From: Chrysomallon squamiferum
Taxonomy: Eukaryota > Animalia > Mollusca
Length of the DNA: 64,000 bases
Reading direction: 5' to 3'
Assembly (NCBI GenBank): GCA_012295275.1
Contig: CM022676.1
Coordinates: forward strand, 13,206,001 to 13,270,000
Of the stretch, positions 1 to 46,884 are shown one piece after another. Every line of letters starts with the position of its first letter. Position 1 is the first letter of the stretch. The notes under the pieces are model-generated. The model worked only from the letters and a program-made list of their open reading frames with translations, did no database searches and was not told the origin of the DNA. The translations under genes were made by a program, and so were the position numbers.

Positions 1-708
1 ATTATGGATAGTAAGTGGTCATGCCACTAGGTTGTAAGTGAATATTTGTTGATGCCAAAAAGTTGTGACTGCACTAATGATATTTTGGTTTCAGTGAAAT
101 TAGTATGTTCACATATTACATTGTTTTGCCAGTAATGTTATAATGAGACTAAAGACATTATGGTCATGATTGTTTGGTAAATATATCAAAACCAAAAAGA
201 CATGAGTGCACTTGCGATGTTCTGTTCCTATATACATGTCTCAATTCACTTTATGACAAAAGGACTTATTTACACTTAAGACTTTTTTAAGTCTGTGATT
301 TTCATACACCAAAATGTTGTAAGCGATTCTGGGGGTGGGGTGAGCTAATGACTAGAACTGTTGTCAAGAAAAATTCTGAATAGATGAGTCTAAAAACAAG
401 CAGTAAACGTGTGATTTCAAAAACCTGTGTCAATACATATACAAATGCCAGACAACTGAAACTTTGTTTTGCATTTTTCTCAGTTTGGCAAAAATGCAGT
501 TACAACCTCATAGCTCTAACCCCTCAATTTATTTATGATACTGATCTATAAAAGAACATAGAAAATTACAAGAGATAAAACATTTAAAAAAAAGGTATTT
601 TAAGGGTGGACTTTTGTCTATAGTTATAGATGTTCTATCTTAACAGTTTCCATCCTTACATAACTCTCAGTCAATGATTAGTCTCTTAACACTTTTCTTC
701 TTTGACAG

Positions 709-1349
709 ATAACAGATCAACAAGTGTTCCTACAGTGCTACCACAATCAACTTCTTCCTGTAATTTAGTTTGTATTATCCTGATTACTGTTGTCAGTGTC
801 ACAGGTGTTTGCATAATCATAGTATGTTGTTTGATATCACTAAGAAACAAAAATACAAAAAAGAACAATAAAAATGAAAATGTACAACTGGGCAGTGAAA
901 TGAGCATTGAAAAGACTCACACGAAAGCAGCATCTTCTACTGATAACAAAGCAGAAGAAAACTGTAACATCCAAGAGAACATTGACAAAAAAAGTGATAC
1001 TGAAGATGTAGAAAGTTCACTGTCTTTCAAAGAAAGGATTCCTAATAAAGCTGGTTCAACCAATACATCCGGTTACCATGGAAATCCTGGAGCAGATGAA
1101 ATATCTGAAGATTACTCAGATAATCAGACCAATGTGCAGCCTGCAAATCAACCAGTTAGTAATGATGTCTGTGAAGAACACACAGAATATGAAGTCTGTC
1201 AACAGACAGTCAGTGATTCACTGAATAAAACTGATGATATGAGTGACAGTACAACAGTGAACCAACATCCTGTCAGACAGAATCACAATGATGTTGATCA
1301 TCAGATTAAAGAATGTTCAGGGATACATGTTACCATCATTAATGTTTAG
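709..1349 (+). CDS. Terminal exon of a type-I membrane receptor (gene 0): stalk, Cys-rich TM, ~170-aa acidic/polar cytoplasmic tail
   Basis: Acceptor cttttcttctttgacag|AT (phase 1). Open frame (D)NRSTSVPT...LVCIILITVVSVTGVCIIIVCCLISL-RNKNTKK...HVTIINV-TAG. The hydrophobic run is followed by a basic stop-transfer stretch. Upstream exons are not in the window. Confidence 0.8.
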
Positions 1350-2861
1350 TACACATAGCTACTACACCACATGATAGCTTATTTTAAATAAATTCTAGAT
1401 GCCAGTGATTGTTTGTGGATGCTGCTTTACTAATCGAGGAACAGCTTCATTTCTGTCTTTTATCTCTGATATAACAAAATGATAGCTTTTAAAAATGTCT
1501 GTATTGTGTTGATGGTTTTTATTCCAGACTGAGTAATAGGCTTATTAACATGGATAAATGTACAACTTAATGCTTGTCCTTCACAAAATCTTTTATAAAT
1601 ACATTTTAACACTTTTGATTATGATGTTTGCAGTAAGAACTTGTATGATTGGTTAACAGTATGCTATCTGTGCTGTCAGGGTGTTTTATTGTGGAATGTC
1701 CTGTATGGATGTTTTAATGAGACGGAAAAGAATATTTACATTTGATCTGATTATATTTCTGATTTATTATCTGAAATTATAGTTTGTAAATTAGATATTA
1801 CTGTTACTTGTCTAGTTTTAGTAATCAGATTATACTTTTTACATCACCTTGTCCTTTGATATTATAATAATAATAATATTATTATTAACATTATTATTTA
1901 TTGGATATTTTTCTTTTTCTTTTTTAAAATGTATTTTCTCCACTTCACTTGTTTTTACCATACTAAAGCTTAATTCCTACACATTTTTATTTTATTCATA
2001 TTAATATGTTTATATTAGAATCGACAACAACAGAAACAACACCATCAAGCAGCAAGTAATGTAATCACATTGTTAGCCCTAACCTTGTGCTAATCATTCA
2101 TGTAACCTCAGTTCCCCTTCCACTGTTCTTAATAAAACCATCTGAAATCTTTATATGCAAAAACACTAATCAGAAACTAGTCAAGAATGCATGAAAATTA
2201 TTCTTTTCAAAATATAATATGATCTCATCTAATGAACACATTTCATTATTAAATTAACGTAAATTATGCAAGTTTATGGAATCTGAGTAAACACAGACTT
2301 AAGACAGCCATAACGAAGGTGTTGACTCGGGCAAAATGATGGATACCACTGACATGGATGATAGCAACATAGTGGTCATTGCTGACATCCTAGTCTCAGT
2401 AAAAGTCCCAGCCAATGTTATATGCATTCACTTTAACTGGTTAGTGGTAGACAGAGTTCAGCCAGTCAGTGCAGAATCAATGTTTTTTAACCTCTGTTAA
2501 TTTGGCTTACAAGCAGACAAAAACTTTATGAATTGCATGGAGAAAAAGATAAAGATTTGCTCATAAACGGAGTGTTGTTGTTTCTTTGATCGTGAGTTTT
2601 TCTGTGAATTCATAACCTGTATGTAAAACAGGATGTTTTAAACACTCAACAGTGAAAACCATGTTAAATATTTTGCAAGCATCAGGCTCTGGCTGCTTTT
2701 AGCCCCATTGGAAAGCTATTAAAATATGTAAAAACGGTGACCATTATAGTAGGTTCAGTTGATTATTTTCAGTGAAAAACATTGGCTGCTGGCGGTTATA
2801 AACCAGTGACTGCACAGAACAGCTCATTTAAAGAAGGAAATGCTTTTGTGTGAATTTGTGG

Positions 2862-2901
2862 TGGGATTTTGAACAGCTGACTGTTAGACGAGTTTCGACT
2901 G
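2862..2901. mobile_element. Terminal inverted-repeat-like end of a Tc1/mariner(pogo)-type DNA transposon fragment (copy at ~37036-37075)
   Basis: Ends ...ctgttagacgagtttcgactg; the reverse complement begins CAGTCGAAACTCG, a CAGT terminus typical of the Tc1/mariner-pogo group. Partner TIR not found. Confidence 0.35.
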
Positions 2902-4042
2902 TGTGTATGTATGTACAGACACAGATACACCTTGATAATTCAAAACTGAAAAGTATCAATAAAATAGGTTAACTTTCAGAGAATTCAGACATTTACAGCA
3001 GTTTCTTCTAATGAACATACATGTACAGGTCTGTATATATAAGCATATATCTGTATATCTAGCTATCTATCTATATATGAATGACTGTATGTATTCATAT
3101 TTACAAGCATAATTCGTACAATTCTCTTAAATCACATTTAAATTGCAAATAACATGTTTCCCACAATACACTTTTGTAAATACAAAGAAACACTAATGAG
3201 AAGAGTTAATGGTTCACTATGGCAGTTCTTTGAGGACTGTATACAATTATATATTATGTAAATTCAAAAGCCTTACATAGACAGATGACCTATAAAAAGT
3301 TAATTTTATTCCGCTTAAAGAACAACTTAAATATTCTCTGCTTTGAGTTTTTCTAAGGCTAATTTCAATTAAATCAATAGTCTAGGACCGAAAAAAAACT
3401 TTGAGAAACAAGTTTTCAATCAGGATATATCTGTTGTCAGCATTTGAATTTTTGAAGGTCATTAAGAACGAATATAAGTGCTTGACTGGGACAAGACTTT
3501 CACTTCTGGAGATAGACGTGATTGAAAGATATGAGTATATGTGTGCTGCTAGATATTTGGTAGTAATTAAAGGATTATTTATTTATTTATTTATTTATTA
3601 ATTTATTTTTTTATCCAATAAGCGGAAGCGATTCCACATTTTCTTCAATGATTTATGCAATAATCACGTAAGTAGTCTTGTAACTATTTTCTTTTTATTA
3701 GTTATTTTATTGTATTATTAATTTTATCAGCTTTCCTCTCAGTATATCTGCATGTATCATCTGTACCTATGTCTAGTATCGCTCAGTCTGTATGTTTCTG
3801 TGATTCTGTATATCTACTTTTCTGTCGGACTGTCTTCAAGTACTTGTGTATGTATGTGTATATGTATTATCTATATGTACATGTAAAAATGTGCCTGTAT
3901 CAGTGTATGTAATGATGTTTATCTACATATGTTGTCTTTTTTTATGTCTGTATGCCTTTCTTGTCTGTGTCTGTGCTTATCTATTTCCGTGTGTCTAATA
4001 ATTCTTTGTTTATCATTTTATCTTTATTTTATCTTTCTTCAG

Positions 4043-4154
4043 GTTTATCAACACTTTAGTCATCACTGGTTTGCTGTAGATCTACAGACTCCTCAGAGAT
4101 AGATAAACACGGAGATATGAGATGTATAAAATATTGACAACAATCTAAATTATA
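4043..4154 (+). other. 112-bp conserved exon-like element, copy 1 of 3 (others 25269-25380 +, 35811-35922 -)
   Basis: Preceded by polypyrimidine tract and cag acceptor (tctttcttcag|GTTTATCAAC). One mismatch to each other copy over 112 bp. Confidence 0.6.
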
Positions 4155-4186
4155 TTCTTGTTTCTTTCTTTGGGTTTTATCCTCAA

Positions 4187-4222
<36 letters not shown>

Positions 4223-5485
4223 TGTTGTTGTTATTATTAGTATTATATATATTTATATATGTATTAAAATGATTCTTTTGTTTTTAAGTTTTTCTAAATG
4301 AAATATAATACATATGTATATTTCTAGAATTTAATTTGCAACTAAATACAATATTTTATTTAGTGTGAAAGACTGATCTTATAACATTTTGACAGTTACT
4401 TTTAGAATAATTGGAAAGAATTTAAAACTGTGTTTCTTTTTATCATTTGTAATTAAACAGTGTATTAGTATACATGTGCCAAATACCTGTTAGAATTACA
4501 AATCAGAAGTAACTCATCAGTTAGAATGCTGGTATATTTTCAGTACATTTCAAAGCATTTCAGAAAGAACACATTTTTATAAGAAAAGTGTTGACGTTGG
4601 TTGTTAGTATTCTTACAGTTATTAAAGTGTTTTAATATTTATAAAATTATTGAAATTCATTGTTAAACGTTAAGTGCTTTAATGTACTTTTTTTTGTTCC
4701 ATATTTAAACAGTTTCAAATTTCAATTGTGGTGTTTATTTCTACTTTATTTATTTTAATTGAAATTTTTCTCTGTTTGAATTTAGTCTGTTCAAAGTTAA
4801 ATTTTCGTTTGAAGATGTCATTAAAACACTCTGAATTTTGACGTGTGCCTAACTTGTATTTTATGTTCTTTCACGCACTCGTACAGCATGGCGTGCCTTA
4901 CTAAGATGCCAGGTTTTCGCTATTCGCGTTAAAACGGCTAAAATAAACTCATCTGTATTATGAGACTAATCTTTAAAATAATACAATGATGCAATATATT
5001 AATTTCAAAGGTTATTATTTATTTAGTTAGTTATCTATTTATTTATTATTATTATTTCTGCTAAAAAATTGGAGACGGTTATCAACCAGAGCTTATGGTA
5101 AGATAAAGATAAAAACATAATTTTTTATTTTGTTTTTTTTTGTTGTTTTTTACGATTTTGTTTTTTTTGTGAAAACGATCTGTGAAAAAAAAAAAAATCA
5201 AAAATTGTTCGAGATTAATTCTGGGCGCGAGTACATTTCATAACATTATAGAAACTATGTGTGAAATGCTTTAATATCCATGCTCCATGTAAACGTCTTA
5301 ATTATGCACATACGGAATGTTTCAAATTTCAACACTGACAATAACGCTTTTACTTTTTTCTTTTATTCTTTTAAGTGAATCTTTTATGTTTAAAATAGTT
5401 ACATTTGTTAATGATTTGTATATAAATCATTTTTAAAATTATTAAAATGTTCTCCTTTCTGTATGTTCAGTTTGTTATTTTAAAA

Positions 5486-5591
<106 letters not shown>

Positions 5592-6515: not shown

Positions 6516-6570
6516 ATGGCGCCATTGAGATATTTACTAGTTTCTGTCATGATTGTTACATGTAGTACAG
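6516..6570 (+). pseudogene. Inactivated duplicate signal-peptide exon (MAPLRYLLVSVMIVTCST-G)
   Basis: 55-nt ATG exon, same length and phase as the leader at 6927-6981, but the donor reads G|ggaagt instead of G|gtaagt. Confidence 0.7.
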
Positions 6571-6926: not shown

Positions 6927-6981
6927 ATGGCGATAGTGGGATACATACTTGTTTCTGCTTCGATTGTTGGCTATTGTTTAG
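6927..6981 (+). CDS. Gene A exon 1: signal peptide MAIVGYILVSASIVGYCL-G
   Basis: ATG, hydrophobic core, phase-1 donor G|gtaagt. Confidence 0.85.
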
Positions 6982-8800: not shown

Positions 8801-9160
8801 GTGTATCATTGAAGATATCTGGTTCTTTGTCTTATGCAGTGTTGAATGAGAAATTTACATTTACTTGTTCTGTGTCACAGGCTGCTGGTCTTAGTGATCT
8901 GATACTATTTTATAAACTAAAACCTGGAGGTCATAAACAGCTGCTAGGTTCTCTCTATCAGACTGTTGATAGTTGTTCTTTATTCAATCGTGCTACTGGC
9001 TACACTCCAGTGTGTGGAGAAGGGATAGACGTTGGATCATCAAGTGTAAAGAACTACACACTGACCATAAACAGAACTTCAGCTGATGATGAAGCACTTT
9101 GGTGGTGTCAACTGAATACAGCTTTAAACAAGAGCAACAATTTTACTTTACCTGTTTACT
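8801..9160 (+). CDS. Gene A exon 2: V-like Ig domain
   Basis: ttccgtacag|GT...ACT|gtaagt, 360 nt; FTFTC...NYTLTINRTSADDEALWWC. Confidence 0.9.
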
Positions 9161-10768: not shown

Positions 10769-10978
10769 ATCCACCGAGTTCATCTCCAGCTGTTTCAGGA
10801 ACAACGTTTCCTGTGTTTGAAGGTGACACTGTCACACTGAACTGTTCTACAACTGGTGGGAACCCAAAACCAAATCTGAACTGGACATGTTATAATCCTG
10901 TACACTGCTCTGACAGAGAAGAAACCAGAACGTGTACAATATCTTTCATAGCTAACAGGACTCAGCTAACTGTTTACC
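10769..10978 (+). pseudogene. Gene A exon 4: truncated Ig domain
   Basis: tttccag|AT CCA CCG; VTLNCSTTGGNPKPNLNW...SFIANRTQ jumps directly to LTVY. The F-strand Cys region is missing and there is no phase-1 GT donor. 3' coordinate approximate. Confidence 0.75.
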
Positions 10979-11523: not shown

Positions 11524-11829
11524 GTTTTGTAAACCTTTCTGGTTTTCCCTCTGCTGTGTTCAGACAAAGCTACACATTCCAGTGTTCTGTGTCAGGCAGC
11601 ATCACTTTACCTGTCAGCTTTGTAAGAAATAAAAATATTATTTGTACAGTTCTGTCATCTTGCCATCAAGTTGATCCTGATCCTGGTTACTCTTGTACAT
11701 GTGCTGGTCAGACTGGAACTTCTACACTCTTCAATCTGACAATAAACAGTGTCAGTCTTGTAGATGAAGCTAAGTGGACATGTACATATGATGGAAGTAT
11801 TAGCAACAATTGTTATTTACAAGTTTTCA
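11524..11829 (+). CDS. Gene A exon 5: second N-terminal-type V-like Ig domain
   Basis: tttttag|GT TTT GTA...TTC A|gtaagt, 306 nt; YTFQC...FNLTINSVSLVDEAKWTC. Confidence 0.9.
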
Positions 11830-13062
11830 GTAAGTTATTTGTTTTTAATTTGATTAAGTACTTTTTATTATTTTATGTTGTACTTTAGTGTAGTAATTAT
11901 TAGTTGCAATTTATACACAATAACAATTTTATTCAACAGATACATCAAAAATTTCAAAATGAAAAGATGAATATATTCACTGAAATTTGTTAGGCAAACA
12001 TTTATCAGCAAACAAAAATAAAATAATTAGGTTTTTTTTTTGTTTAAAACTTTTTAAACAAACTATAAATTTATGATCACACGAATAAAAAACAAAATCA
12101 ATCATTATGTGTCATAATAATGGAAATATTAAGCTGAACATAGTATAGTTAAATAGAATATTTTGTATTCTGATATTTAATCTATGACATTTTATTAATT
12201 TATGTCAGAAAAAGAAACAATTGATATAAACTATACATATCTGAATCAAACAACAAAACTTTTTAAAAGAAGTGGTGTTGTTTTTTTTGCACTGAAATTT
12301 AGTATGTTTTGACAAATGTAAGAACATTTGCTCCTGAATTATTAAATGAAGTAGATTTAACTGAGCTTCATAAAAGGCTGTATTCTTTCTCAATAGTGTA
12401 CATCAGTCTTTATGTTAAACTCAGTGTACTAAAGAGAAGGTGATAAAATGACTACTAGTTCAAGGCTGTGCAAAAAAAGAGAATATATTGATGAGCTGCA
12501 CTGAAAACAACTGATAATTTCTCTCAAGAATAATAGTTAATGGTGTTAGGTGTTCAAGCATAGTTTGTCAATTGCTTTAATAATCTTGACATACTAAACA
12601 CTTACACAGTTGTAGATAGTGCATGACTAATTCACCAGCAAACATCAAGTAAATTATAAGCAAATAGATGTTCAGCAATGAATGCAGGAATAAAATAACT
12701 CATACTTAGCTATTCAGTTTTGTTTTGTTTTTGTGTAATGGATTATAATTCAAATTAATGTTCATATATTTCCTGGGATTTTGTGGAGGTAGATTGAAAG
12801 CAAACAAACTCTATGACTATGTAGGTCTTATTCAACAACCAGTCCGGACAAATTCCAAGACAGCTGTTGATACACTAAGAAATCTGAGCAGCTCACAGAC
12901 CGAAAGACCTAGACATGAGCTGATCACTTGGACCAGTGAAAACTGACCACTGGTGAAAACCTGTTAGCTGGAAAGATAATGATGAATTTGCCATTTTGGT
13001 TCCACCGAACTGCATGTACAATGACTTGCCTCATAAACATTCCATATATTTATATTTTTCAG

Positions 13063-13401
13063 CTCCAGTTAATTATACAATCACAGAAGTTTCTGGATCA
13101 AGACCAAACTCATTTAACATCACTGAGGGAAACTCTGCTGTTTTTACCTGTGTTGTACAGGGAGCCAAACCAGCACCGACTGTTTCACAGATCTTGTGGT
13201 ACGTAGACAGTAACAAGCTTCCTGTCAGCATCACTGGATCTCCCACTACTACTGACAGACTGACAACATTAAATGTGACGTACACAGCCAGCAGAGAACA
13301 TGATGGTCAGAAAGTTTTCTGTGCTGCTGAAAATAACTTGATGATTGACCAAAGTATCCCTGCTGTCAACTCAAGCAACAAAATTGGATTAGTAATTCAA
13401 A
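13063..13401 (+). CDS. Gene A exon 6: CD80-like C2-set Ig domain
   Basis: tttttcag|CT CCA GTT...CAA A|gtaatt, 339 nt; FTCVVQGAKPAP...W...REHDGQKVFCAAEN. Confidence 0.9.
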
Positions 13402-14342: not shown

Positions 14343-14608
14343 GTCCACCAGACTTTCCTTCTACAAGTGGTGAGTGTCCAGATACTTACATAGAGTCAGG
14401 ACAGAGTGGAACTTGTGTGTGTAACACCACTTTTTTCTAGGAACACCTGCTGGCACAGTAAGCTGGATAACTCCTGATGGAACTGACACACACAAACAAA
14501 CTCTTGTCTTGAAATCTATTAATAGAAAGTACAACAATCAGAATTACACTTGTCAAGTCAGAAACTACGTGGAGATCAGAAACTTGACATTTACAACAAA
14601 ACTAGCAT
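14343..14608 (+). pseudogene. Gene A exon 7: Ig domain with homopolymer frameshift
   Basis: cttgcag|GT CCA CCA...GCA T|gtatat, 266 nt (not a multiple of 3). T6 at 14431-14436 gives in-frame TAG; shifting frame restores LGTPAGTVSW...NYTCQVRN. Not in the ORF track. Confidence 0.82.
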
Positions 14609-14913: not shown

Positions 14914-15234
14914 TTGGTCCTGATAGAACTGATATAACTGGCAACCAAGCAGATTTTGATGCTGATGGAATCAGAAAATTGACCTTGACCTGTATTAGTG
15001 CATCATCAAGTCCCAGTGTGAACTTTACTTGGAGAAATGTCACTAGTGGTCAGATTCTGATTTCAAACGAACCAATCAGAGAACAAGACGCTGGTGATGG
15101 AGGAAAGCTGTTTAGTTAGAATCTGGTTTTGGTTCCACAGTGGTATCAAGATGGAGATGAAATAGAGTGTGAAACTAAGAATTCTCAGATATCTGACAAA
15201 AACTCAAAAACAAAAACTACACTGAGTTTGATTT
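14914..15234 (+). pseudogene. Gene A exon 8: Ig domain with in-frame TAG at 15117-15119
   Basis: ttttag|TT GGT CCT...ATT T|gtgagt, 321 nt; LTLTCISASSSPSVNFTW...GKLFS*NLVLVPQWYQDGDEIECETKN. Confidence 0.85.
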
Positions 15235-15547: not shown

Positions 15548-15813
15548 ATCCACCTGTGAATCCTCCAGAAATAAGAGGATTCAAGACAGGACAAGTGGTT
15601 TATGAAGGAGACACACTGAACATTCGCTGTGTTGTGTCAGGTGGTAAACCTCTAGTGACATCAGTAAGTCTGTCTTGTGACACAGATCACAGGAACACTT
15701 CATCTGAGAGAGATGAAAACAGTGTTTTTGTAGATTTGTCATTTACAGTTACAGGAAATCTTAACTCTAAGACTTGTCAGTGCAGTTCAGTTCACCAGAC
15801 TCACATATATACT
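15548..15813 (+). pseudogene. Gene A exon 9: Ig domain with G-strand deletion, ends out of phase
   Basis: ttttcag|AT CCA CCT; LNIRCVVSGGKP...TCQCSSVHQTHIYT|gtaagt. 266 nt, phase-0 end where all sister exons end in phase 1. Confidence 0.78.
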
Positions 15814-16083: not shown

Positions 16084-16368
16084 ATCCACCATCATCTCCA
16101 GATCTGGTTCTAAGTTTGAGTTTTCCGTGGTTAGAAGGTCAGAGTAGAAACCTGACTTGTGCAGTGTCTGAAAGAGGAAATCCTCCAGTTGTCATTGTCT
16201 GGTTTAAAAACGGAGTGAAAGATTCCACACACACAAACTCCTACTGGCTGTTCAAACATCTGTCCTACACAGACAACAGACAGACATTTATGTGTCAAGC
16301 TACGAATAACTTCACACTCCACAACAATGATCCAAAGTCATCTGAAAATAAAACACTAAATGTTTACT
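16084..16368 (+). CDS. Gene A exon 10: Ig domain
   Basis: tttag|AT CCA CCA...TAC T|gtgagt, 285 nt; LTCAVSERGNPPVVIVWFKNG...FMCQATN. Confidence 0.9.
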
Positions 16369-17274
16369 GTGAGTATTGTGTGTTTTAATCAAACAAAATT
16401 TTAGTATCTTGGAAATGTTCATTTCATTTAATATTGACAAATGTTATTCTAGTCAGTATTGAATATTTTGAAAGAAAATTAAAAGCTTTCTGATATTTAA
16501 ACATATAAACTGATAATGTAGATATGACTGTTATTTTATTTTATGTTGAATTTTCCTAAATATTCTATTTACTAAAATAAATATGTTTTTTTAGTATTTA
16601 CATCGTGATTAACATTATTTCACTATTTCTACAGACTGCATCTTTCAGTTCAGCACAAGTATCCATTTAATTATTTTACATGGTTAATTTTCTCTTTCAT
16701 ATTCAAACTGCTACAGTTACAATTTTTCTTCAAACTTCATATTTATACATTATTTAAATACAGCCATAGTAAGTTGTTTGTAAAAGTCAAAAGTGTGCAT
16801 CTTCCTGCAAATTATATACGAGAACAGTTATGAAAAATATGACTCAGTAATTAGAGGAAAAGTGTTCAGTGCAATACAACATTCACTATTCAGTAGAGGA
16901 GAAGTCAGTATTAATGTAGCTGGTAACTTTTGATTAAAATACGAAATGTCTGGTGATGCATTACATAACATTTTTGTACGAATAAATACATTTACACAAA
17001 GATACACAAAAGTGACTTTCACTGAAAGTAATTAAAATTGATTTTTTTTTCATACTAATTCTACAAATAAAATCTGTTATACTACTAAAATAATTTGGAT
17101 ATTAATTCTGAAAATAAAATTCTAATACGGAAGTCGAAGAAAAGTGAACACTGAGAAAAAGTTATCTCATAATATGAATTTATAACAGAATGATTGTTGG
17201 AAAAATATGAATGATACACCATGTTTACATACTTTAAATTTCACATTTACATCATTCTTATTTTTTTTTATCAG

Positions 17275-17541
17275 ATCATCCACGAGTGAGTATTGATAAA
17301 TCTGGACCAGTCACAACGCGGGAAGGACAAAGTCTGGATGTAGTAAACTGTTCAGCAGACAGCAATCCTCCAAACACAATACTCAACTGGACATCAACCT
17401 CACCTCACTGGACTGGTGGTTTCCCTTTACATATTGCAGTACTTGACAGAGACCACCACGGTACATACACATGTACAGCGACAGTGTCATCTTCAGTAGC
17501 AACACTAACTGGAACATCTCAGATTAAAATTATAGTTAACT
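17275..17541 (+). CDS. Gene A exon 11: Ig domain
   Basis: tatcag|AT CAT CCA...AAC T|gtgagt, 267 nt; VNCSADSNPP...W...DHHGTYTCTA. Confidence 0.9.
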
Positions 17542-17876
17542 GTGAGTATTTATATGTTAAAACACTAATTATTTGTTATTTCCGTTAACTTTGTATGTAA
17601 ATTATGTTTTAATTCCTGGTTAAGTATTTATCAGTGATGTTTTTTTTTTTTTTTTTTTGTTGTTGTTGTTTTTTGTTTTGTTCTTCATTTATTATATTTT
17701 ATTTTGTGTAAAATGGAATTGTAATTGTGTATATAAAATATTTATAAAACAGTGTTTTGTTTTGCTTAGTCTAGCCTAGTCAGTGTATTCTGTTAACGTA
17801 ACGAAGATAGTTAGATTATCAAGTGTATGACAATAATGACTTGATTTATTACTGTAAATTTAGTAATTGTTTACAG

Positions 17877-18173
17877 ATGCTCCTGATCTGACTTTTCCTT
17901 CTTTAAACACAACTGAAAACACGTCACTGAATATCAACTGTTCTGCTGATGGTCGTCCTGACAACATGAACTTCAAACACTTCAAACATTACTGGAATGA
18001 CGTGTTTATTCAAGATGTGCCAGGAACAAAGGTAACAGGTAATCAGTACAGATTGAAGTTTAATCCTGTTACGTTTGAAGACAGTGGAACTTACATCTGT
18101 AGTGTGGAAAATGGAATCCCAGACAGGAATGGACGTTTACTACAAAACAAAACCAGCAGTGTTTATGTTAAAG
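17877..18173 (+). CDS. Gene A exon 12: Ig domain
   Basis: tttacag|AT GCT CCT...AAA G|gtatca, 297 nt; INCSADGRP...EDSGTYICSVENG. Confidence 0.9.
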
Positions 18174-18462: not shown

Positions 18463-20607
18463 ATACAACTTTTTTTCAAATATATGATAAACTCAATTTT
18501 AAAATTTTATTTCCTTAAAACTGTCCTAACAGCTGACATAGCAATCACTATTTATATTAAAAAAAAATGTAAGGGTAAAAAAGTAAAAAAAAAGATAAAT
18601 CATATTCCTTGTGAATCAAATTAATGAAGTAAACTTCATCCAAGATTTTATTTGTTACTCCATATTTATAGAAAAGAATTGATAAACATAAAGTTAGTCA
18701 CTTTATATGTTGCCAAAGATTGAGGGGTCAAACATGGAGTCTACACATCAACACATTTGATTAATAATCAGCGAATTCATCACTGGCGCTGAGAGATTTC
18801 TTTCATCTTTGTCTCATGCTGTAACAAATTGCATTCGTGCAACAAAACTAATCTTTTAAGAAGGACTTGTATACTGGTCTATAATTGAACTAACTTTTAT
18901 TATCCATGTAACAATACATTTAACACCCGTATGACTTCCACATTTGTCAGTCTGTCTATGTTTTCTTTGTTCAACAGTAACCAGAAACAAGCTTTGACCT
19001 TGGACTGGTGTGATATTTGTAGATGAGTGATATAGACAAGTCAACACTGGTATATTTGGTATTATGAGTGAAGCTCTGGAAAGAAAAAAGAAAGTGTTGA
19101 TGACAATAACAATGACAGTGAGTTTATTCTAATAAACTGTGGGATTACAGTACTTAGAAGAATGTATTACAGCTACATAATAACAAAATTATAATACACA
19201 TGCGTGGAATTTTAAAGTGGAGGACATACTCTCACATACAGTTCTTATTACCAAACATAGCTTTTTTAATAAAAATATATTTTTACTGTTAAACAAATTA
19301 TTATATGAAATTACATTTGAATGTCTCATATATTTATCTGTGATACCTTTTGTTTCATTTAATAATACAGGATCATTACATTCATCTCCAATTTTGTTAA
19401 GATTACAGATACAACATTTTCTGTTGTCTCTTACTAAGAGTCTTAGAATATTATACCATCGTCCAGTTTCAATAGGAAGTTTAGCATTCGCGGTTCTAAA
19501 TTTACATAAGATATTAGCATTCTTCTAAGACAGCTAAATAAGATGGTTTTCTAATTTCAGTTCATTTTTAAAAATATTATAATTAATACCCTTTAGAGAT
19601 GTTTCAGTTTGATTTTTCTATAATTGTTAAAACTGATCATGTAATATTTTGGATATGTAACCATTTAACATTATCTTAGTTGTAATACGTCCATATATAT
19701 CTTAAACCACAATCATCTTCAATATTTATTACAAATTTGTTCCAAGGAGAATCGATAACATGCATTAAATAATATAGTTGTGAGGAAATCTTGTTTTGGG
19801 TTTTGCAAATTAGGTTCCCTCAAAACGTTATCATTCTTACTTTTATAGAAATACAAAGGGGATGCCGTCCGAGTTCACCATAGATCATAAAACCAGGGGT
19901 ACATTTATTAACATTTAGTAAATACTTACACAATTTCATATGAAGTCTTTCTATAAGTTGTATATTTGTAAAGCACCGCATTTCACAACCATACAATAAA
20001 ATTGGTTGTATTAATTTATCAAATAAATCAACTACACAGTCGATGGGGAGATTTTTCTGTTAGGCTGTACCCAGCTTTCACTGCTTTGTTATATAGTTTG
20101 GGAGAAAAAACATTTATGAGATCAGCATCAATTTTATGACCAAGAGATTGAATGATAACTAAACAGTATTGGTTCAGAAATTAAAAGTTCGAAAGAAGAA
20201 CAAATATTCAATAATGTATAAAATTGAGTTATACTTAACAAAGAACGCAGCAGCATTCATGTGTTTTAAAAATTCAGATCTTTTTATTTCTTAATGTTGA
20301 ATGTCTAAATTTTTTCATGTATTGTAAAAATTGATTAAATCCTCTGGAACACTACAATATTTCAAATTACTTTTGTTAAGAATTATTACTCTTCACATAT
20401 TTAAAATAAACACATATTACAATACAGTAGTTAAATCTTTATCATTAATATAATTATACTTTCAGCTGCATTCAAATATAATCTCTTTTTAATAATACAA
20501 TAGTTTAAATGTTTATCATTCATATAATTACACTTTCAGCTTCATTCAAATATTTAATATTACAGTAGTTTAAATGATTATAATTAATATGATAATTTTA
20601 CTTTCAG

Positions 20608-21246
20608 CTGCACCTAAGATCATTAACAAAACAGACAACATTGTGGGAGCTGAGATAGGAAATCCTGTTGTATTACACAAATCTGTGTTTTGTAAACCAA
20701 GTTACACAAATTTTACCTGGACTAAATTTGATGATCAAACTGATTTTAACAACACTCAGGTCACAAGAGAAAATATCACATTTCAAATACACAGTAAAAC
20801 AGTGACAGATTCTGGTTACACATTTTCTCTCAATATCAGTAATTTTACTCAAGATGACATTGGAACATACAAACTGACTGTCTGTAATGAAGTTGGATGT
20901 TCTCAGTTTTCAGTGAACCTAACTGCAGCAGGTCCACCTCTTCCTCCTAAAGAGTTCCAACAAGAAAGAGAATCAACATCACACACAGTGTTCTTGTCCT
21001 GGCTACCTAACTACCCAGGTGGTAATTTCAAACAAAGATTTATTCTGTAGTACAAACCACAAAGTGACTCTAACTGGATTACTTGGCAAAGTGAATGGTT
21101 TGATTACTCAACAGACAGACATAAAATAATTTTTAACATCACAGATCTTCAGTCTAAACAAGTTTACGATATTCGACTGTCAGCTCAAAGTAACAGACTT
21201 TCAAATAACACCAGCAACTATGCTACACTTGAAGTTACAACACAGG
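20608..21246 (+). pseudogene. Gene A exon 13: membrane-proximal Ig plus FN3 domain, in-frame TAG at 21048-21050
   Basis: ctttcag|CT GCA CCT...CAG G|gtaagt, 639 nt; DDIGTYKLTVCNEVG (Ig), then GPPLPP...VFLSWLPNYPGG...FIL*YK...ITDLQSKQVYDIRLSAQS (FN3). Confidence 0.85.
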
Positions 21247-21259
21247 GTAAGTAAAGATT

Positions 21260-21437
21260 AACTGGATTACTGCTTGGCATAGTGAATTGTTCGGTGACTA
21301 AACACAAGGACAGAAAATAATTTTTAATATCAGCAATCTCAAAGACAAAACACTTTATAGTGTCAGAATTTCAGCTGAAAACACAAGAACTCAAGACAGT
21401 ATGAACAATTACGTCATCTTTCAAGTAATTACAAAAG
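21260..21437 (+). pseudogene. Diverged tandem duplicate of the 3' half of the FN3 exon
   Basis: Translates NWITAWHSELFGD*TQGQKIIFNISNLKDKTLYSVRISAENTRTQDSMNNYVIFQVITK-G|gttatc, colinear with NWITWQSEWF...KIIFNITDLQSKQVYDIRLSAQS...LEVTTQ-G. Confidence 0.75.
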
Positions 21438-22450: not shown

Positions 22451-22588
22451 CTTCAGAAGAACAGAGTGGTTCTAGTTCTCTGCTTGGTGCAGCTGTAGGA
22501 GGAGCTGTTGGTTCTTTGACTGGCATTGTTGTCATAGTGATACTTGTTTTTTTGCTTAGAAGACGTGGACCATTTTCAAACAAATCTG
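22451..22588 (+). CDS. Gene A exon 14: transmembrane exon
   Basis: gttacag|CT TCA GAA...TCT G|gtatct, 138 nt; ASEEQSGSSSLLGAAVGGAVGSLTGIVVIVILVFLL-RRRGPFSNKS. Not in the ORF track. Confidence 0.88.
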
Positions 22589-22925
22589 GTATCTTCTTAA
22601 CCAATCTGCAAATTGTGATAAATTAAACAATAATACTAACTGTCTTGTAGGTTATTTCCTTCATTGTGAACCCTTCAATTATAATAATCTATACCTGAAG
22701 AGTCTTACCTTTTAGCATAACGGTAAAAAAAACAAAAAACACACAAAACATACGATAACATCTTTCACAAATATTACATAAAATTACGTTGTAGTATTAA
22801 TACTTGTAGTACCAGCAGTAGTAGTGGTTGTTGCTGTTTTTGTAACAGTTCAGTATTTTCCTGGTCACAATTCTAAATGTTGTAATGTTTTGTCTATCAG
22901 TTTCTGATTTCTATTACCTTTACAG

Positions 22926-23036
22926 TTATGGAACATCCAAGTCCAGTTACAGACCAAACATACGAAGGACTTCAACAAAACAGAGAAACTACTGAATACT
23001 CAAGAATTGGGATGTATGAAAATCTGAGACAAACTG
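22926..23036 (+). CDS. Gene A exon 15: cytoplasmic ITAM exon 1
   Basis: tttacag|TT ATG GAA...ACT G|gtaaac, 111 nt; VMEHPSPVTDQT-YEGL-QQNRETTE-YSRI-GM-YENL-RQT. Confidence 0.85.
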
Positions 23037-23125
23037 GTAAACATAATTATATTTCTTAACCTATAATGAAATCAGTGTTATTTTAAAGAGATTACATTTT
23101 ATTTAAACATTTAAAATTATTTCAG

Positions 23126-23244
23126 GTGCTGTAAATAACACTATAACAGCTGACCACACGTATCAAGGTCTGCAAGAAAGCAGAGAAGAACCACACTACA
23201 CTAAACTGAACCTGTATGAAAATCTGAAAAAAGGTGACAAATGA
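23126..23244 (+). CDS. Gene A exon 16: cytoplasmic ITAM exon 2 and stop
   Basis: tttcag|GT GCT GTA...AAA TGA; GAVNNTITADHT-YQGL-QESREEPH-YTKL-NL-YENL-KKGDK*. Confidence 0.85.
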
Positions 23245-23739
23245 TATTATTATAATGAAAGTAACTTTACATTGTGTACGTTTTTAATCAATATTATAGC
23301 TACTATATTATACCTACTTACACTGATATTTGACGTTTTCTTTGAAAGAAGCTAAATTCAATAAACAGAAACTAATTGTTTAACTGTTATATAATACAAT
23401 ACAAGAAAATATTTTCTAGTGAAAAGAAACACCAATCGTGTCAGACGTTTTCTGGAATTGCTTTTCTAAATTGAAGATAAAAAGAGAATTCTAACATTAT
23501 TATGAATAAAGGAATTGAAAATGAAATGTATAAGAAAAACAAATTCATATGTTGACTATATCGTGCAGTCTGTCTTATTCCATATATTTTCACATGAATA
23601 CATAAAATAACAGACTGATTTCATCTTTCATTTATTTATTTATTAAGTAAATCAGCGTTTGTTCTATTTCGTAAATGTTGATTATATTTCTCGATATTTG
23701 CTTTCAAAATAAATATCATGTTAGATTTTAACTTATTTT

Positions 23740-30079: not shown

Positions 30080-30734
30080 GTGAGTTAAATCCTTTTTCAA
30101 TTTATTTATTTATTTTTTTTCCTTACTTTTTAAGTCAGAATATAAACCTGTATATATATTAAATAATGAGGATTATTACTTGCATTACACTTTTTCACAG
30201 AAATGTAATCTGACGTACTTGTAAATTTTAGTTCAGTGAATGCTGGTTGTATTTATTTAAAAAAAAATTATATTTGGTTTTCATCTATGTTAAAATTTTA
30301 ATTGAAATATAGACAATTGTGTTCTCATAAACTGTGGCATTAATCAAACAGAAAATGAATTGAGGACAAACTGTTGTTTTTATTTATTTTTGACTGGTGT
30401 ATATCAACTATCTGTTATGAATTTTGTAGGAAACAGTACTTGGTTACTGCTACTACAAGTGTGTCATCAGACTCCATGCCCAGATGTTAGAATCTTAGGC
30501 TGTTACTTAGTAGTTGTGTCTAGGTCATAAGCACTTAGTCCATAACCATGGTTTATTATTAATACTATTATAATTTTATTTTTATTTGTATGTTTCTTTA
30601 TAGGAAAAGGTGAAAAAAAGAAATAAGAAATCAGTTTTATTTATGATTGTATTTAAACTGAAATAAAAATGCTAGAAAACATAACAAATTGTAAATACAC
30701 ATACAAACATTCACACTTACAACTCTTATTTCAG

Positions 30735-31043
30735 GTCAGTATGTCATTGCAAAATCTAAAGACACAGTTCTAAATGGATCATCATTAACAATTACATGTA
30801 ATACGAGCAGAAAAGTAGATGGAATAGCTTGGACACGGGGTGATAATAGCTTCCTTGTTTCACAAGGATCAGGTACAAGTTGTACTGGAGATATGCCACC
30901 ACAATACGACTTCACATGTTCCCAAGGGATTTTATACAACTTAACAATACCCAGTATTACGTTCATTGAAAATGGAATAGTTTGGAGATGTCAGGGTGAA
31001 TTTGGAGGAGATGACAGTAATACCATTATTGTAAATGTTACTG
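30735..31043 (+). CDS. Gene C exon: V-like Ig domain
   Basis: tttcag|GT CAG TAT...ACT G|gtaagt, 309 nt; LTITCNTSRKVDGIAW...TSC...FTCSQGILYNLTIPSITFIENGIVWRC. The ORF track shows only its antisense shadow. Confidence 0.9.
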
Positions 31044-33088
31044 GTAAGTTTTGATAATTATAGTTGTTTGTATGAGGTTAATAGTTTTATCTCATCCAAA
31101 AGAATTATAAAAATTATTTCATACATTTTAGCAGATATCTTAACTTGTAATAAAGGAAAGAAAATATTTTCTAGAAAGCATTTATATTGTTGTTCTTTAT
31201 GTGCGTCTGTTTCGTGCTAGTTCAGTAAGGAAGAAATTTAACACATTGCTAGTTTACATCAAATTAATTTAATTCCTCAGATTTTCTGATATAATTTTTG
31301 ATATTTTCTGGAATTACAATACACACTTCCTTTAACATACAGTTAACCTTAGTTAACTCAAGTGTTTATTTGTTGATAACCTCATTCTCTCAAGATGAAG
31401 CTCTGGTCCTGTTTAAGTTAGTCATAATTGGTAATAATAACCTTTGAATAATCAAACATCCAAATAATCAAAAACCTCTATTTATTCAAAGTTGTTTATG
31501 GTCACAAACAGCTGATTTAATAGTGTTAATTAATGTTTGAAAAGTCATAGTGCTGGAATTGTTAGTCTATTGTTTCACTTGTTAAATATGGAACAATAGA
31601 TCATTGATTAAGTGAAATAAAATATGCCCCCTCCATTTCTGTTTTTTACAGTATCTTTACATAATTGCATAAAGTTCACTGATAGATGTTAGCTTTTGCT
31701 GTTTAAATGCCAGTTAATGTTTAACATCTGTTGAATTGTGAAAAATCGCATCTTTGTAAACAAGGTCCCTTTTCTGCTTTACGAGCCCTGTCTAATGTTT
31801 TCCAATACACCTCCTTCGGTTTCAGGTGCCAGTGTTCTGACTGTTGTTCTTTGGCTGTTGGATTCTCAAAGGCTTGGTATAACACTTTGTATATAAGTAC
31901 TGATTCATTTCATACTGGGATATCACACCACCGATGTTATGGTTAATTGGTGACATCTTCAGTTGAGAAACCAACGTGTCACATTTATCAGTGATGATCT
32001 GGCCCTCATAGGCCAGACATTTATGTGCACATTTTCACATTTCAGGTGTCAATTTTTTTTGTCAAACAGAATACTTTTGGTGGTTCTGATGAGCAGGTCA
32101 TGATTTTGACAGATATACAAGATAAATAAAGATAATCATAAAAGAGAAAACAAAAAAAACAACAAGAAAATTCTGAGTAGGGTGAATGTACTTTAGAGGA
32201 TGGACAGTCAAACTTCTCTTTTGTTGTTTCTAATATATTGCATAATGGATTGTTATCACTGTAGGAGATCCTTTAATCCTTATCATATTCTTTTCAGAGA
32301 AAAAATATTACAGATATATATAGATATATGTCGGTATGTTAAGAAAACATTCAGCTCTAGGACACCAGTAAATGACATGTTTTATTGGATTGAGCCTTAA
32401 GAAAGAAACAAAATAAGACCAACATTTTTGAAATTCCTTGAAAATTGAAGGAGTTGAGGCAATTTCAAATGCTGGAAAACGTACCAATTTTTTTCTTTTT
32501 GTTTTATTATGTCATTTGGCCAAATGCTATGATCCTGAATAAAAAATTAACATGATAAAAATGCCTATATCACCTGAAATAGTGGAAAGTGCATAATTGT
32601 ACATATCTGTCTTCTGTTTTGCATAACATTAAGACTTTTGAACTACAATGTATATACTAACTTAATTATACATCTGATGATAAACATTTTTCACAAAGTG
32701 ACTGAAATCTTACAGTAATAAACTTTACCTAAATATTCAAAGAAGTGATTGATTTCCACATAAATTTCACAAAGTATGTGAAACCTTACAGTAATAAACT
32801 TAATATTTTGTGAAACTCACAGTTTGAAAATAATTATTTTTACATAGGCGCCACTTCAGCAGTTGTTGTTTTGTTACACAACCCTATTACTAATATTGAG
32901 ATTAACACAGTATTTCATATTACTAATAAATAAAATACAATGAAATAAATATAAATAATAATAATCTTCTTTCTTTTTTAAGATCTATGTTTCTTTCCAT
33001 TTGGAAGTAAACGTTTTACAATGGTAAAAATTAGTACTTATTAATTTTCAAGATTTCAATCTTTATTGTTTTATTTTTCATTTTCAAG

Positions 33089-33399
33089 TTCCTTTGCAGA
33101 AAGTCTCTATAACAACTGGGTCAACTCCAGTAAAGCCAGCAATTCTTACACAGATGAACTGTTCAACCAACCCTTGTTATCCAGAAGCTGTAATCATATG
33201 GACTTTAGATGGTACAAAGATAACAGAGGGCATTATCAGCTCCACTGAGACAATTGTTGACTCTGGTATTGTAACAAGGAGCAATTTAAATGAAAAATTT
33301 AATACATATGATAATGGAAAAAGTTTGGTTTCTTCAGTTACTTCAGTTTCTCTCTTATATCAACATTGTTACAGAACATTCAAGTCTAATAATTGTTAA
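33089..33399 (+). pseudogene. Gene C exon: C2-set Ig domain with degenerate 3' end; gene truncated
   Basis: ttttcaag|TT CCT TTG; QMNCSTNPCYPEAVIIW...YDNGKSLV, then TCT where the F-strand Cys is expected. The frame runs to TAA without a donor, next to (TC)n and the inverted arm. Confidence 0.78.
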
Positions 33400-33438: not shown

Positions 33439-39516
<6,078 letters not shown>

Positions 39517-42840: not shown

Positions 42841-43151
42841 TTAAAATTTTACTTTTTGGGAGGTGATATGATATAAAATGATATCTGAAGTAAAATGTAT
42901 ATATGCATTTAATCAAGGTTTAGATGCTAAACTTAGCAGATATTTCATGCATCTGAAAACATTCCAATGTAAAGATTATATCAGTTATGTTTCTTAATTT
43001 TAAACTAAACACATGCAAAACACACACACAGTGAAAATAAAAATTTTACTTATTTCTATAAAAGAATGCTATGAACATCATTGATAAAGGGAAGATGATG
43101 TTAAATATTATATAAATGTTTTAATTGGATAAGATATATGTTTGTATTTAC

Positions 43152-43377
43152 CTGGAAATGTAAGTTCGCGACTTTCAGTTTGCAGTGGACCAGCATCTCC
43201 TAACGAACGGTGGTTGATTAACAGGATTAATTTAACTTTTTTACCAGCAAACTCAGATGGTATTTGGTCAAATGACAAAGTACACGTTGATTGTTCATCT
43301 CCAGAGTTACATGTATCTTTGTTACTGGTTATCTTTGTCAGAGTGTCTGGAACATTATTCTCGGTGCCACTGGATAT
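43152..43377 (-). CDS. Gene B exon: second half of Ig domain 2
   Basis: tttgttatgcag|ATA TCC AGT...CCA G|gtaaat, 226 nt, phase 0/1; ...STCTLSF...KVKLILLINHRSL...ELTFP. Confidence 0.82.
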
Positions 43378-43596
43378 CTGCATAACAAAAACTGCACAGA
43401 TAAGGACATATATGAAGTAAATTTTAAAAATATATATATATAAAAAATAAGAAAAAGTACAACATTAAGTATTATATTTATCTAAAATTTTGTCCACTAA
43501 ACACTGTTTATAAAACAGGTATATATACCTGCACTGATATATGCCATCTATCATTTATTTATTGATAATACACTGTTGCTTATTTGTATCATACAA

Positions 43597-45113: not shown

Positions 45114-46566
45114 CTGAAATATAAAAGGAATTATTAAAACAGCAGTAACAATAATAATATTTGTTAAATTTATTTATTTTGTTTTATTATGTTTTAAAAA
45201 TATTTTTAGGACTAAATTCCAGTGTGTATATATGAAATTTGTTTCAGTACACAAAAGAGTCATGTTAATTTCAAGTCAGTGTTAGTGAATTGATATTGTC
45301 TGATTTATATATTTTAATTTTTGATGATAAAGTATTGATCTGCATGTTTCTTCCAGTGTCAGAATCAGGTTGCTTATTAATTGCTCAAAATAACAACAAA
45401 TAACTAAATTTCAAACAAACTGTTACCATGTAACAAAAAAATCTAAATTACAATGTTTTTGATCAGTTGAAGATGTTTTAGAAAATCTTAATTTGATCTG
45501 GACAATACAGCACAGCTATGTTAAAAAATTCCACAACTTTATAAAATGGTAATAATCTTCTGAGACTGCTGCCATGCCATTTTTCATAAATCTGCTTTAT
45601 ACACGATATTGTTGAATCATTTTGTGCTTTTCACTATGTTTAAACTAATTGAACAGTAACTTGAATATAAAATGAATACATAAAAGCACCAAACTATACT
45701 GGGTACTAGGTGTAATAACAACAGAAAAATATGAATAAATGCATTTACAGTTCAAACAATGTAAGGCAAGTAATATAGTTATCTCAATTTAAAATCATAA
45801 AGTAGGATATCCAATTTGGTAGGAAACATTTCAAAACAGAGTGGGAAGATATTTTACATTTTCAGTTTGTATCCATGTTCTCTCAATTCAGCATCTGTAT
45901 GAAAGAGTATATATGTGATGGGAAAAATCATTAAGGTATCATGTTTTGACCTAACAATCTCTATTTAAAACATGTTTTAAAGTGCTGGTTCCAATAATTT
46001 TCTAATCTATTTTAAATATCATTTGAATCCTAATTTCATCATAACTATAACAATTTCTACTTTGTTCAATCTTTTACATTTTCTAGTAGTGTCACAAATA
46101 TCTATATTCTTGTTTCTGTAAATTAAGTGAATTCTACAAGATACTTATGCCCAGATCCAACTATAATTTTAATTTTAGCAAATGTTACATAAACTCTTTA
46201 TGAACCAGTCATCCATCTGATCTGTAAAATCTATTTGTTAATCCTAAAGGCATGAAAGTCTCTTCACAATTTAAATACTTCTCACATTAGACTGAAAATT
46301 TTATTTTCCCAGTTAACCAGATTTATAATTAACAAAATTAGTTATGACAAAAATGAAAAAAAAAATGAAAAAAAACTTGATAATATAATTTCATAAAATT
46401 AAAAAATAAGATGGAAAGAAAAAAAGAAAAATGATTTTCAGAATTCATTACGTTGAAGAAAAATATATCACGCATTTTGTTAAAAGTCAAGTCTTTTTCT
46501 TTTTCTAAAATTACTTTTTTTTTTTTTTCCTTTGTGTCAGTTATACAGAATGCTAATTATGTTTAC

Positions 46567-46884
46567 CTGACAAACCAACTATGCATGATGCTGGTGTGTT
46601 TGATGGAGAAGCATCCATACACTCCCATTTTGTGGCATCATCAGATCCACTGAAACTCTTTATCACTGCAGTCATAGATCCTGAAGCATTTCCAATTACC
46701 TCATATTCTATTTGGTGAAAAAAACATGAGCCAAAAGTACTGTTACACTGCACAACAGGTGCACCCTTCTTTAAAAAATACACCTTTGTATCAATGATTC
46801 CACTTTTGTAAATACACGTCAAGTTTAGCGGTATTCCCTCAAACCAGTTTGCAACACATGGACTGATTTCAAAAATAGCTGATC
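46567..46884 (-). CDS. Gene B exon: V-like Ig domain
   Basis: attttag|GA TCA GCT...TCA G|gtaaac, 318 nt; IPLNLTCIYK...VQC...GSC...MTAVIKSFSGSDDATKWEC. Confidence 0.87.

What the first reader, a model, noticed from the sequence alone, without database searches (positions are those of the whole stretch)
22926..23244. Two paralogous cytoplasmic exons, each a three-tyrosine cassette: canonical ITAM plus YENL
Seen: YEGL-x8-YSRI-x2-YENL and YQGL-x8-YTKL-x2-YENL, each on its own phase-1 exon and both invisible in the ORF track. TEYSRI also fits the ITSM consensus TxYxxI. Established: YxxL/I-x6-8-YxxL/I is the ITAM bound by tandem-SH2 Syk/ZAP70/Shark kinases, and pYxN is the Grb2-SH2 preference. Inference: a modular, exon-duplicated signalling cassette wired directly to a multi-Ig ectodomain, making this an activating receptor with expandable ITAM number in an invertebrate. 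A possible donor at AAAG|gtgaca hints that more cassettes could follow in paralogs.
Basis: partly seen in the sequence, partly recalled or inferred. Interest (0 to 1): 0.82.

Follow-up and report, generated by a model that had tools for sequence, protein, structure and literature searches.

The report
Snail receptor's duplicated three-tyrosine signalling exons
Two short sister exons end a snail cell-surface immunoglobulin-type receptor gene, each encoding a conserved three-tyrosine motif that likely switches on immune-type kinase signalling; RNA from related gene copies splices them onto the membrane anchor, but the copy assembled here is broken upstream and is likely non-functional.

Summary
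Exon A (22926-23036) and exon B (23126-23244) encode YEGL-x8-YSRI-x2-YENL and YQGL-x8-YTKL-x2-YENL. Exon A passes Pfam's ITAM cut-off. RNA contigs in 2 of 2 RNA runs (one study) join TM to A to B in frame and read through the proposed extra donor; they differ from the window by about 5-16%, so they come from other copies. Gigantopelta aegis homologs carry the same cassette, twice in the two proteins with a full tail. All three Tyr and the Y3+2 Asn are invariant in 9 of 9 cassettes, which are partly redundant.

It is likely a disabled member of an expressed family. The ITSM match is not conserved, and no protein with more than two full cassettes was found.

Best reading: an activating Syk/Shark-type receptor family with a built-in Grb2-type YxN site; binding is untested. 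Invertebrate ITAM-bearing Ig receptors are known (oyster CgIgR, Hydractinia Alr). The exon-packaged ITAM+YxN unit did not turn up in my literature searches. New variant of a known kind; interest 0.42.

The parts
6927..6981 (+). Predicted signal-peptide exon (55 nt, phase-1 donor); a decayed twin at 6516-6570 has GG in place of the GT donor
   Evidence: resembles the N-terminus of P0008 by eye
8801..9160 (+). V-type Ig exon, intact
   Evidence: Pfam V-set E 4e-4, below cut-off; 55% to P0008
9332..9592 (+). Ig exon, intact
   Evidence: Pfam Ig_2/Ig_3/I-set; 51% to P0008
10769..10978 (+). Truncated Ig exon: lacks the second Cys strand and has no GT at the expected donor (lesion 1)
   Evidence: 64% to P0008 231-289, then the match stops
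11524..13401 (+). Second V-like exon (11524-11829) and C2-type exon (13063-13401), both open
14343..14608 (+). Ig-like exon of 266 nt, frame-breaking (lesion 2)
14914..15234 (+). C2-type Ig exon with in-frame TAG at 15117-15119 (lesion 3)
15548..15813 (+). Ig exon of 266 nt, frame-breaking, last strand shortened (lesion 4)
16084..18173 (+). Three open Ig exons: 16084-16368, 17275-17541, 17877-18173
   Evidence: Pfam Ig hits; splice sites
20608..21246 (+). Juxtamembrane Ig+FN3 exon with in-frame TAG at 21048-21050 (lesion 5)
   Evidence: 63-67% to 8 homologs; all laid contigs of 4 runs read C at 21048
21257..21437 (+). Tandem duplicate of the second half of the FN3 domain, with its own stop and donor
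   Evidence: DNA contigs cross the junction
22451..22588 (+). Transmembrane exon (hydrophobic stretch without a charged residue, then RRR)
   Evidence: RNA contigs carry FN3-end letters directly before it
22926..23036 (+). Cassette exon A, phase 1-1: YEGL-x8-YSRI-x2-YENL
23126..23244 (+). Cassette exon B, terminal: YQGL-x8-YTKL-x2-YENL, stop TGA 23242-44; GT at 23234 is a likely relic donor
23245..23510 (+). Likely 3' UTR; a poly(A)-type hexamer at 23505
   Evidence: RNA contig X8 record 23 runs 23125-23481 without a joint; hexamer scan

Best explanation
The two exons are duplicated signalling cassettes at the tail of a gastropod multi-Ig/FN3 type I receptor family, and each likely works as an ITAM for a Syk/Shark-type kinase with an adjacent YxN site for a Grb2-type adaptor, while the copy in this window is likely a disabled family member. 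Shown: exon structure, in-frame TM-A-B splicing in RNA of other copies, conservation of D-x-T-Y-x-G-L-Q, Y2 and Y3-x-N, and five lesions upstream in this copy. Inferred: ligand-driven clustering lets a Src-family kinase phosphorylate Y1 and Y2 (12 residues apart); tandem SH2 domains of Syk or Shark dock; the kinase phosphorylates Y3; Grb2 is recruited through pYxN and couples to Ras/ERK or phagocytosis. Two cassettes would double the docking sites. The TM has no charged residue, so the receptor would signal by its own tail and not through a DAP12/FcR-gamma-type adaptor.
For: Pfam ITAM on exon A above the cut-off, and weaker ITAM hits on exon B, P0005, P0008, P0009 and P0010. All 9 cassettes have D at Y1-3; the ITAM consensus quoted for oyster CgIgR is D/ExxYxxL/I-x6-12-YxxL/I (PMC6994640, passages). 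Y1, Y2, Y3 and N at Y3+2 are invariant in 9 of 9 cassettes while Y3+1 varies E/Q/K, the pattern expected of a Grb2-type YxN site (YXN binds Grb2: PMC4263166, passages). Splices 22588|22926 and 23036|23126 appear in RNA contigs of X8 and X9. None of the 15 coding differences in A/B that I took from that table alters a Tyr or the YENL Asn; two are synonymous changes in Tyr codons. A molluscan precedent exists: CgIgR recruits CgSyk and raises ERK phosphorylation.
Against: No binding, phosphorylation or reporter data. Only 1 of the 7 sequences scanned (window A, window B, P0005, P0008, P0009, P0010, P0031) passes the Pfam ITAM cut-off. Y2+3 is F in 2 of 9 cassettes and Y1+3 is V in one RNA contig. 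The 9 cassettes are not independent: 5 are near-identical G. aegis copies and 2 are one cluster. I did not show Syk, Shark or Grb2 in this organism (no genome held). Invertebrate Syk can be inhibitory (amphioxus, PMC13344425, passages). The RNA evidence is 2 low-depth contigs from one study, none identical to the window. Only the 40 best-supported of 163 differences were shown. Y2 and Y3 are 6 residues apart, so kinase and adaptor may not fit at once (inference). No clear relative outside G. aegis and unnamed ENA records was found.
Confidence: 0.6

Rival explanations
1. The cassette is an ITAM only; the third tyrosine is an alternative ITAM half-site or a YxxL sorting signal for endocytosis, and its Asn is conserved for reasons other than Grb2.
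For: Y3 always ends in L/V at +3 (9 of 9), which also fits YxxPhi sorting signals (recalled). Three-tyrosine arrays with ambiguous pairing occur in Hydractinia Alr1B/C/D (bioRxiv 10.1101/2022.03.25.485889, passages).
Against: Neither a sorting signal nor an ITAM half-site needs N at +2, yet N is invariant while +1 varies. A further YSN[LV] ends P0005 and P0009. Y2-Y3 spacing of 6 is too short and Y1-Y3 spacing of 18 too long for the usual ITAM.
Confidence: 0.15
2. The tail is inhibitory or a switch: the tyrosines recruit SHP-type phosphatases or drive inhibitory Syk signalling.
For: TEYSRI in exon A fits ITSM; LTYEGL in one P0005 cassette fits ITIM; G. aegis has T two residues before Y3. Amphioxus SYK suppresses NF-kB (PMC13344425, passages).
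Against: The ITSM and ITIM matches are each in 1 of 9 cassettes; the residue two before Y1 is invariant only at -1 (T) and -3 (D), the ITAM-like pattern.
Confidence: 0.12
3. The family is a nephrin/SYG-2-like adhesion receptor whose repeated tyrosine motifs dock adaptors for cytoskeletal control, with no immune role.
For: Architecture of many Ig domains, one FN3, TM and repeated tyrosine motifs; NCBI labels for G. aegis homologs include 'synaptogenesis protein syg-2-like', 'hemicentin-1-like' and 'L1-like'.
Against: Those labels are automatic and disagree with one another. The family is multi-copy, apparently lineage-restricted and turns over (decayed copy, mosaic ectodomain), unlike single-copy nephrin. 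Nephrin's Nck motifs are YDxV-type (recalled), not ITAM-spaced.
Confidence: 0.13

Closest known systems
CgIgR of Crassostrea gigas (PMC6994640; passages read)
   Same: Mollusc type I receptor with Ig ectodomain and an intrinsic ITAM; reported to recruit CgSyk, raise ERK phosphorylation and promote phagocytosis.
   Different: Five Ig domains, no FN3 reported, one two-tyrosine ITAM; no YxN third site in the quoted motif and no duplicated cassette exons described in the passages seen. Homology to the window gene was not tested.
Hydractinia Alr family (PMC9546547 and bioRxiv 10.1101/2022.03.25.485889; passages read)
   Same: Clustered invertebrate IgSF genes with V-type Ig, FN3-like domain, TM, ITAM or ITIM tails, many pseudogenes; some tails hold three tyrosines or two ITAMs.
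   Different: Cnidarian; one to three Ig domains; in the passages seen the tyrosine arrays lie within one exon with about 8-residue spacers, and the quoted motifs have no YxN.
Vertebrate BCR: CD79a ITAM plus downstream non-ITAM Y204/Y210 (PMC10779339, passages) and the IgG ITT YXN-Grb2 module (PMC4263166, passages)
   Same: An ITAM with a nearby extra tyrosine that is phosphorylated and recruits an SH2 adaptor to amplify the signal.
   Different: In the BCR the YXN site is on a separate chain (mIgG) and the CD79a third tyrosine binds BLNK. Here ITAM and YxN are 6 residues apart in one exon on the ligand-binding chain. No homology is implied.
Botryllus FcoR family (PMC12582321; passages read)
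   Same: Expanded invertebrate IgSF family with exon-level swapping of tyrosine motifs.
   Different: FcoR carry hemITAM, ITIM and core motifs; the authors state that the ITT-type YxNM motif was not found on any FcoR.
Gigantopelta aegis proteins P0005, P0008, P0009 (NCBI automatic names: L1-like, hemicentin-1-like, uncharacterized)
   Same: Direct homologs: 63-67% identity in Ig+FN3 (P0005, P0008) and the same three-tyrosine cassette.
   Different: Their two cassettes are 22/25 and 24/25 identical to each other, against 13/25 for window A versus B. P0005 and P0009 add a terminal YSN[LV]. No functional description was found.

Membership tests
ITAM-bearing activating receptor | YxxL/I-x6-8-YxxL/I with an upstream acidic residue | tested here: met
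   Both exons fit, spacer 8, D at Y1-3; Pfam PF02189 above cut-off for A only; Y2+3 is F in 2 of 9 homologous cassettes
ITAM-bearing activating receptor | Motif lies in the cytoplasmic tail of a spliced TM protein | tested here: met
   In-frame TM-A-B joints in RNA contigs of X8 and X9, which are other copies; same order in P0005 and P0008
ITAM-bearing activating receptor | Dual phosphorylation recruits Syk/ZAP70/Shark tandem SH2 and activates the cell | not testable with these tools
   No phosphopeptide modelling or assay; no genome held to show the kinase
ITAM-bearing activating receptor | This window's copy has an open frame from signal peptide to tail | tested here: not met
   Two in-frame stops, two frame-breaking exons and one truncated exon. 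A product that skips all five broken exons would keep the frame and is not excluded
Grb2-docking YxN (ITT-like) site | Conserved Asn two residues after the tyrosine | tested here: met
   N in 9 of 9 cassettes with +1 variable; criterion from PMC4263166
Grb2-docking YxN (ITT-like) site | Binds Grb2-family SH2 when phosphorylated | not testable with these tools
   Needs a pull-down or binding assay
ITSM-bearing (SLAM/PD-1 type) receptor | Conserved TxYxxV/I | tested here: not met
   Only window A has it at Y2, 1 of 9 cassettes
Nephrin/SYG-2 orthologue | Orthology across bilaterians and nephrin-type Nck motifs | tested here: inconclusive
   No nephrin among hits, whose word-based search has limited reach; no tree was built
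Oyster CgIgR orthologue | Sequence homology of the ectodomain | not tested
   CgIgR sequence was not obtained; no oyster hit

The most novel reading that the evidence does not exclude
Vent-type snails use a one-exon 'ITAM plus Grb2 amplifier' module, convergent on the B-cell receptor's ITAM/ITT design, that is duplicated or homogenised separately in each lineage to tune signal strength, and that serves as the activating arm of a paired Ig-receptor cluster controlling uptake or killing of bacteria, symbionts included.
Probability: 0.2. Interest if true: 0.75.

Novelty: new variant of a known kind. Interest (0 to 1): 0.42.

Why it matters
Mollusc immune signalling rests on very few receptors with a defined activating tail; the one functional ITAM-Ig precedent my searches returned is oyster CgIgR. 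This is a compact, conserved three-tyrosine unit that can be tested directly with peptides and chimeras. If Y3 binds Grb2, an invertebrate has packed kinase docking and signal amplification into one shufflable exon. The motif also gives a handle for re-annotating a family now labelled 'hemicentin-like' or 'titin-like'. It does not show that ITAM signalling in invertebrates is new, and the copy in this window is likely dead.

Tried and rejected
No genome is held for the window, so paralogs and Syk/Shark/Grb2 could not be counted. Search with the P0008 tail region returned only P0008 itself, 1 hit among 2473 candidates. The ectodomain profile against longer proteins returned P0008 and one distant insect Dscam2 at 27%, 2 among 7994 scored. 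The cassette profile against 1.84 billion representatives gave 24 hits: 2 carry the whole cassette (P0009, P0010); P0031 is a partial tandem look-alike without the third YxN; 21 repeat a short D-x-T-Y-[EK]-G-L-K word with unrelated spacers and look like translated CRISPR-type repeat arrays (my reading), so I dropped them. The cassette profile found no meaningful PDB match (1 chance hit, E 0.44). ESM Atlas hits for the P0008 TM+tail all scored under 0.9 and are leads only. The metagenome locus scan found no relative among 203 pattern matches. Summed contig depth was not used as copy number. The idea that the TAG at 21048 is simply an assembly error was weighed: all 14 laid contigs read C there. 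However, at two other positions where every contig differs (20833, 20926), the window's residue matches G. aegis in 7 of 8 and 8 of 8 homologs, so a real diverged copy or allele is more likely; this is not settled. A bare ITAM regex on genomic frames was rejected as non-specific. No complex prediction was run: phosphotyrosine and the snail's kinases are not available to it. Literature searches that found no description of this cassette or family: (open-access library only; supplements not read).

Full report
Observation. Exon A runs 22926-23036 between AG and GT (111 nt, phase 1-1). Exon B starts at 23126 and ends at TGA 23242-44. Their tyrosine codons and spacings give YEGL-x8-YSRI-x2-YENL and YQGL-x8-YTKL-x2-YENL. 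They share 36% identity and 13 invariant columns. The three-tyrosine pattern occurs twice in the window against a mean of 0.017 in 60 shuffles, whereas the plain ITAM pattern is common by chance in this DNA (53 real, mean 21 shuffled). Pfam's ITAM model scores A at 22.5 bits (cut-off 22.2) and B at 16.8.

The gene. Upstream lie a predicted signal-peptide exon (6927-6981), eleven Ig-type exons between 8801 and 18173, an Ig+FN3 exon (20608-21246) and a TM exon (22451-22588) with no charged residue in the hydrophobic stretch. The 8 homologs found for the Ig+FN3 exon among 85 candidates are 63-67% identical; 5 are named Gigantopelta aegis and 3 are unnamed ENA records. So this is a gastropod family close to that vent snail. 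No genome is held.

This copy is broken. It has five lesions: a truncated Ig exon without its donor (10769-10978), 266-nt frame-breaking exons at 14343-14608 and 15548-15813, and in-frame TAG codons at 15117-19 and 21048-50. At 21048 all 14 laid contigs of four runs read C. That could mean an assembly error. But at two other positions where all contigs differ, the window's residue is the one G. aegis has (7 of 8 and 8 of 8 homologs), so a real diverged, disabled copy is more likely. The ends of the ectodomain match P0008 at 51-67% and the middle block at 39% or less or not at all, which suggests a recombinant. Because the Ig exons are phase 1-1, a product that skips the broken exons is not excluded.

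Splicing. Two runs on record as RNA (X8, X9; one study; contigs only) were laid. Both join 22588 to 22926 at GT..AG. X8 joins 23036 to 23126 at GT..AG; X9 makes the same in-frame joint with a few other letters at the junction. X8's contig continues without a joint to 23481 and X9's to 23260, so B is terminal in these transcripts and the GT at 23234 is not used; both carry A at 23233. RNA loose ends put FN3-end letters directly before the TM exon. These contigs differ from the window at 6 of 111 and 16 of 357 bases (X8), and 6 of 69, 6 of 107 and 21 of 134 (X9), so they are paralogs or alleles. Of 15 coding differences in A and B that I took from the table, none alters a Tyr or the YENL Asn and two are synonymous in Tyr codons; one changes Y1+3 of B from L to V. 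The table showed only 40 of 163 differences.

Conservation. Of the 8 homologs, two have full tails: P0005 and P0008 each hold two cassettes of the form YEGL-x8-YS[QK]L-x2-YQNL. The others end at or before the TM or have an unrelated end. A cassette profile against 1.84 billion representatives added P0009 (G. aegis) and P0010 (unnamed), and P0033 is a cluster mate of P0010; 22 of the 24 hits were dropped as repeats or partial matches. Across the 9 cassettes, D(-3), T(-1), Y1, G, L, Q, Y2, Y3 and N(Y3+2) are invariant; Y3+1 is E/Q/K; Y2+3 is L, I or F; the spacers vary freely. The set is redundant: 5 G. aegis cassettes are 21-24/25 identical. The two cassettes within a G. aegis protein are 22/25 and 24/25 identical, against 13/25 for A versus B and 12-14/25 between species. 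So the pair was either duplicated separately or homogenised in G. aegis. No protein with more than two full cassettes was seen; P0008 has one extra lone TYEGI. P0005 and P0009 end in a further YSN[LV] after the last cassette, which suggests (inference) that the donor homologous to 23234 is used there for a short final exon. No such exon and no third cassette was found downstream in the window, apart from an unread 200-N gap.

Mechanism. Y1 and Y2 fit the ITAM consensus, and the invariant Asn after Y3 fits a Grb2-type site. The likely sequence is clustering, Src-family phosphorylation, Syk or Shark docking on Y1/Y2, phosphorylation of Y3 and Grb2 recruitment (confidence 0.6). All binding steps are inferred. 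Y2 and Y3 are only 6 residues apart, so docking could be sequential. Rivals are ITAM plus a sorting signal (0.15), a nephrin-like adhesion role (0.13) and an inhibitory or switch tail (0.12).

Comparison with the known. Oyster CgIgR has five Ig domains and one ITAM and recruits CgSyk (PMC6994640, passages). Hydractinia Alr genes are clustered IgSF/FN3-like receptors with ITAM or ITIM tails and many pseudogenes (PMC9546547, passages); some hold three tyrosines (bioRxiv 10.1101/2022.03.25.485889, passages). Botryllus FcoR swap hemITAM and ITIM by splicing and lack YxNM (PMC12582321, passages). In vertebrates CD79a has a third tyrosine for BLNK (PMC10779339, passages) and mIgG a YXN site for Grb2 (PMC4263166, passages). 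Amphioxus SYK can be inhibitory (PMC13344425, passages). Other papers were seen as search listings only, and no supplements were read. I found no description of this family or of an exon-encoded ITAM+YxN unit (open-access library only).

Earlier notes of this scan describe paired ITIM/ITAM Ig receptors 2 kb beyond the window's end and 500 kb before its start. They are unchecked leads; I did not test them.

Verdict. A real, spliced and conserved signalling cassette in a snail Ig-receptor family, seen here on a likely disabled copy. New variant of a known kind; interest 0.42.

Noticed in passing
window 22563-22575 (RNA run X9 loose ends): RNA contigs share the TM exon's first part but continue in different sequence (one for 255+ letters), so family members with a similar TM and different tails are present; candidates for partner receptors.
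   Followed up: no
window 278-5587 versus 33441-39508: A large inverted duplication, 92-96% identical, brackets the Ig gene; each arm holds a single-pass membrane ORF with a long acidic tail (690-1349 +, about 38440-39107 -).
   Followed up: partly
window 30695-31054 + and 33028-33399 +: Two further Ig-like exons (V-like, then C2-like) of another gene or fragment, cut off by the inverted repeat arm.
   Followed up: no
window 46553-46900 - and 43108-43464 -: Exon-like ORFs with paired Cys on the minus strand; the first has no Pfam match at E 0.1. Possibly a divergent Ig-like gene.
   Followed up: partly
window 21257-21437: Tandem duplicate of half an FN3 domain directly behind the Ig+FN3 exon's donor; the FN3 end spliced to the TM in X9 RNA resembles this second copy.
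   Followed up: partly
window 6516-6570 and 6927-6981: Two 55-nt signal-peptide-like exons in tandem; the first has lost its GT donor.
   Followed up: partly
window 19189-19524 -: ORF fragment resembling the end of a non-LTR retrotransposon reverse-transcriptase ORF (recognised from memory), inside the intron before the Ig+FN3 exon.
   Followed up: no
proteins P0011-P0030, P0032: 21 database 'proteins' made of a repeated short word with unrelated spacers, likely translated CRISPR-type arrays, mimic the first half of an ITAM and contaminate motif-profile searches.
   Followed up: no
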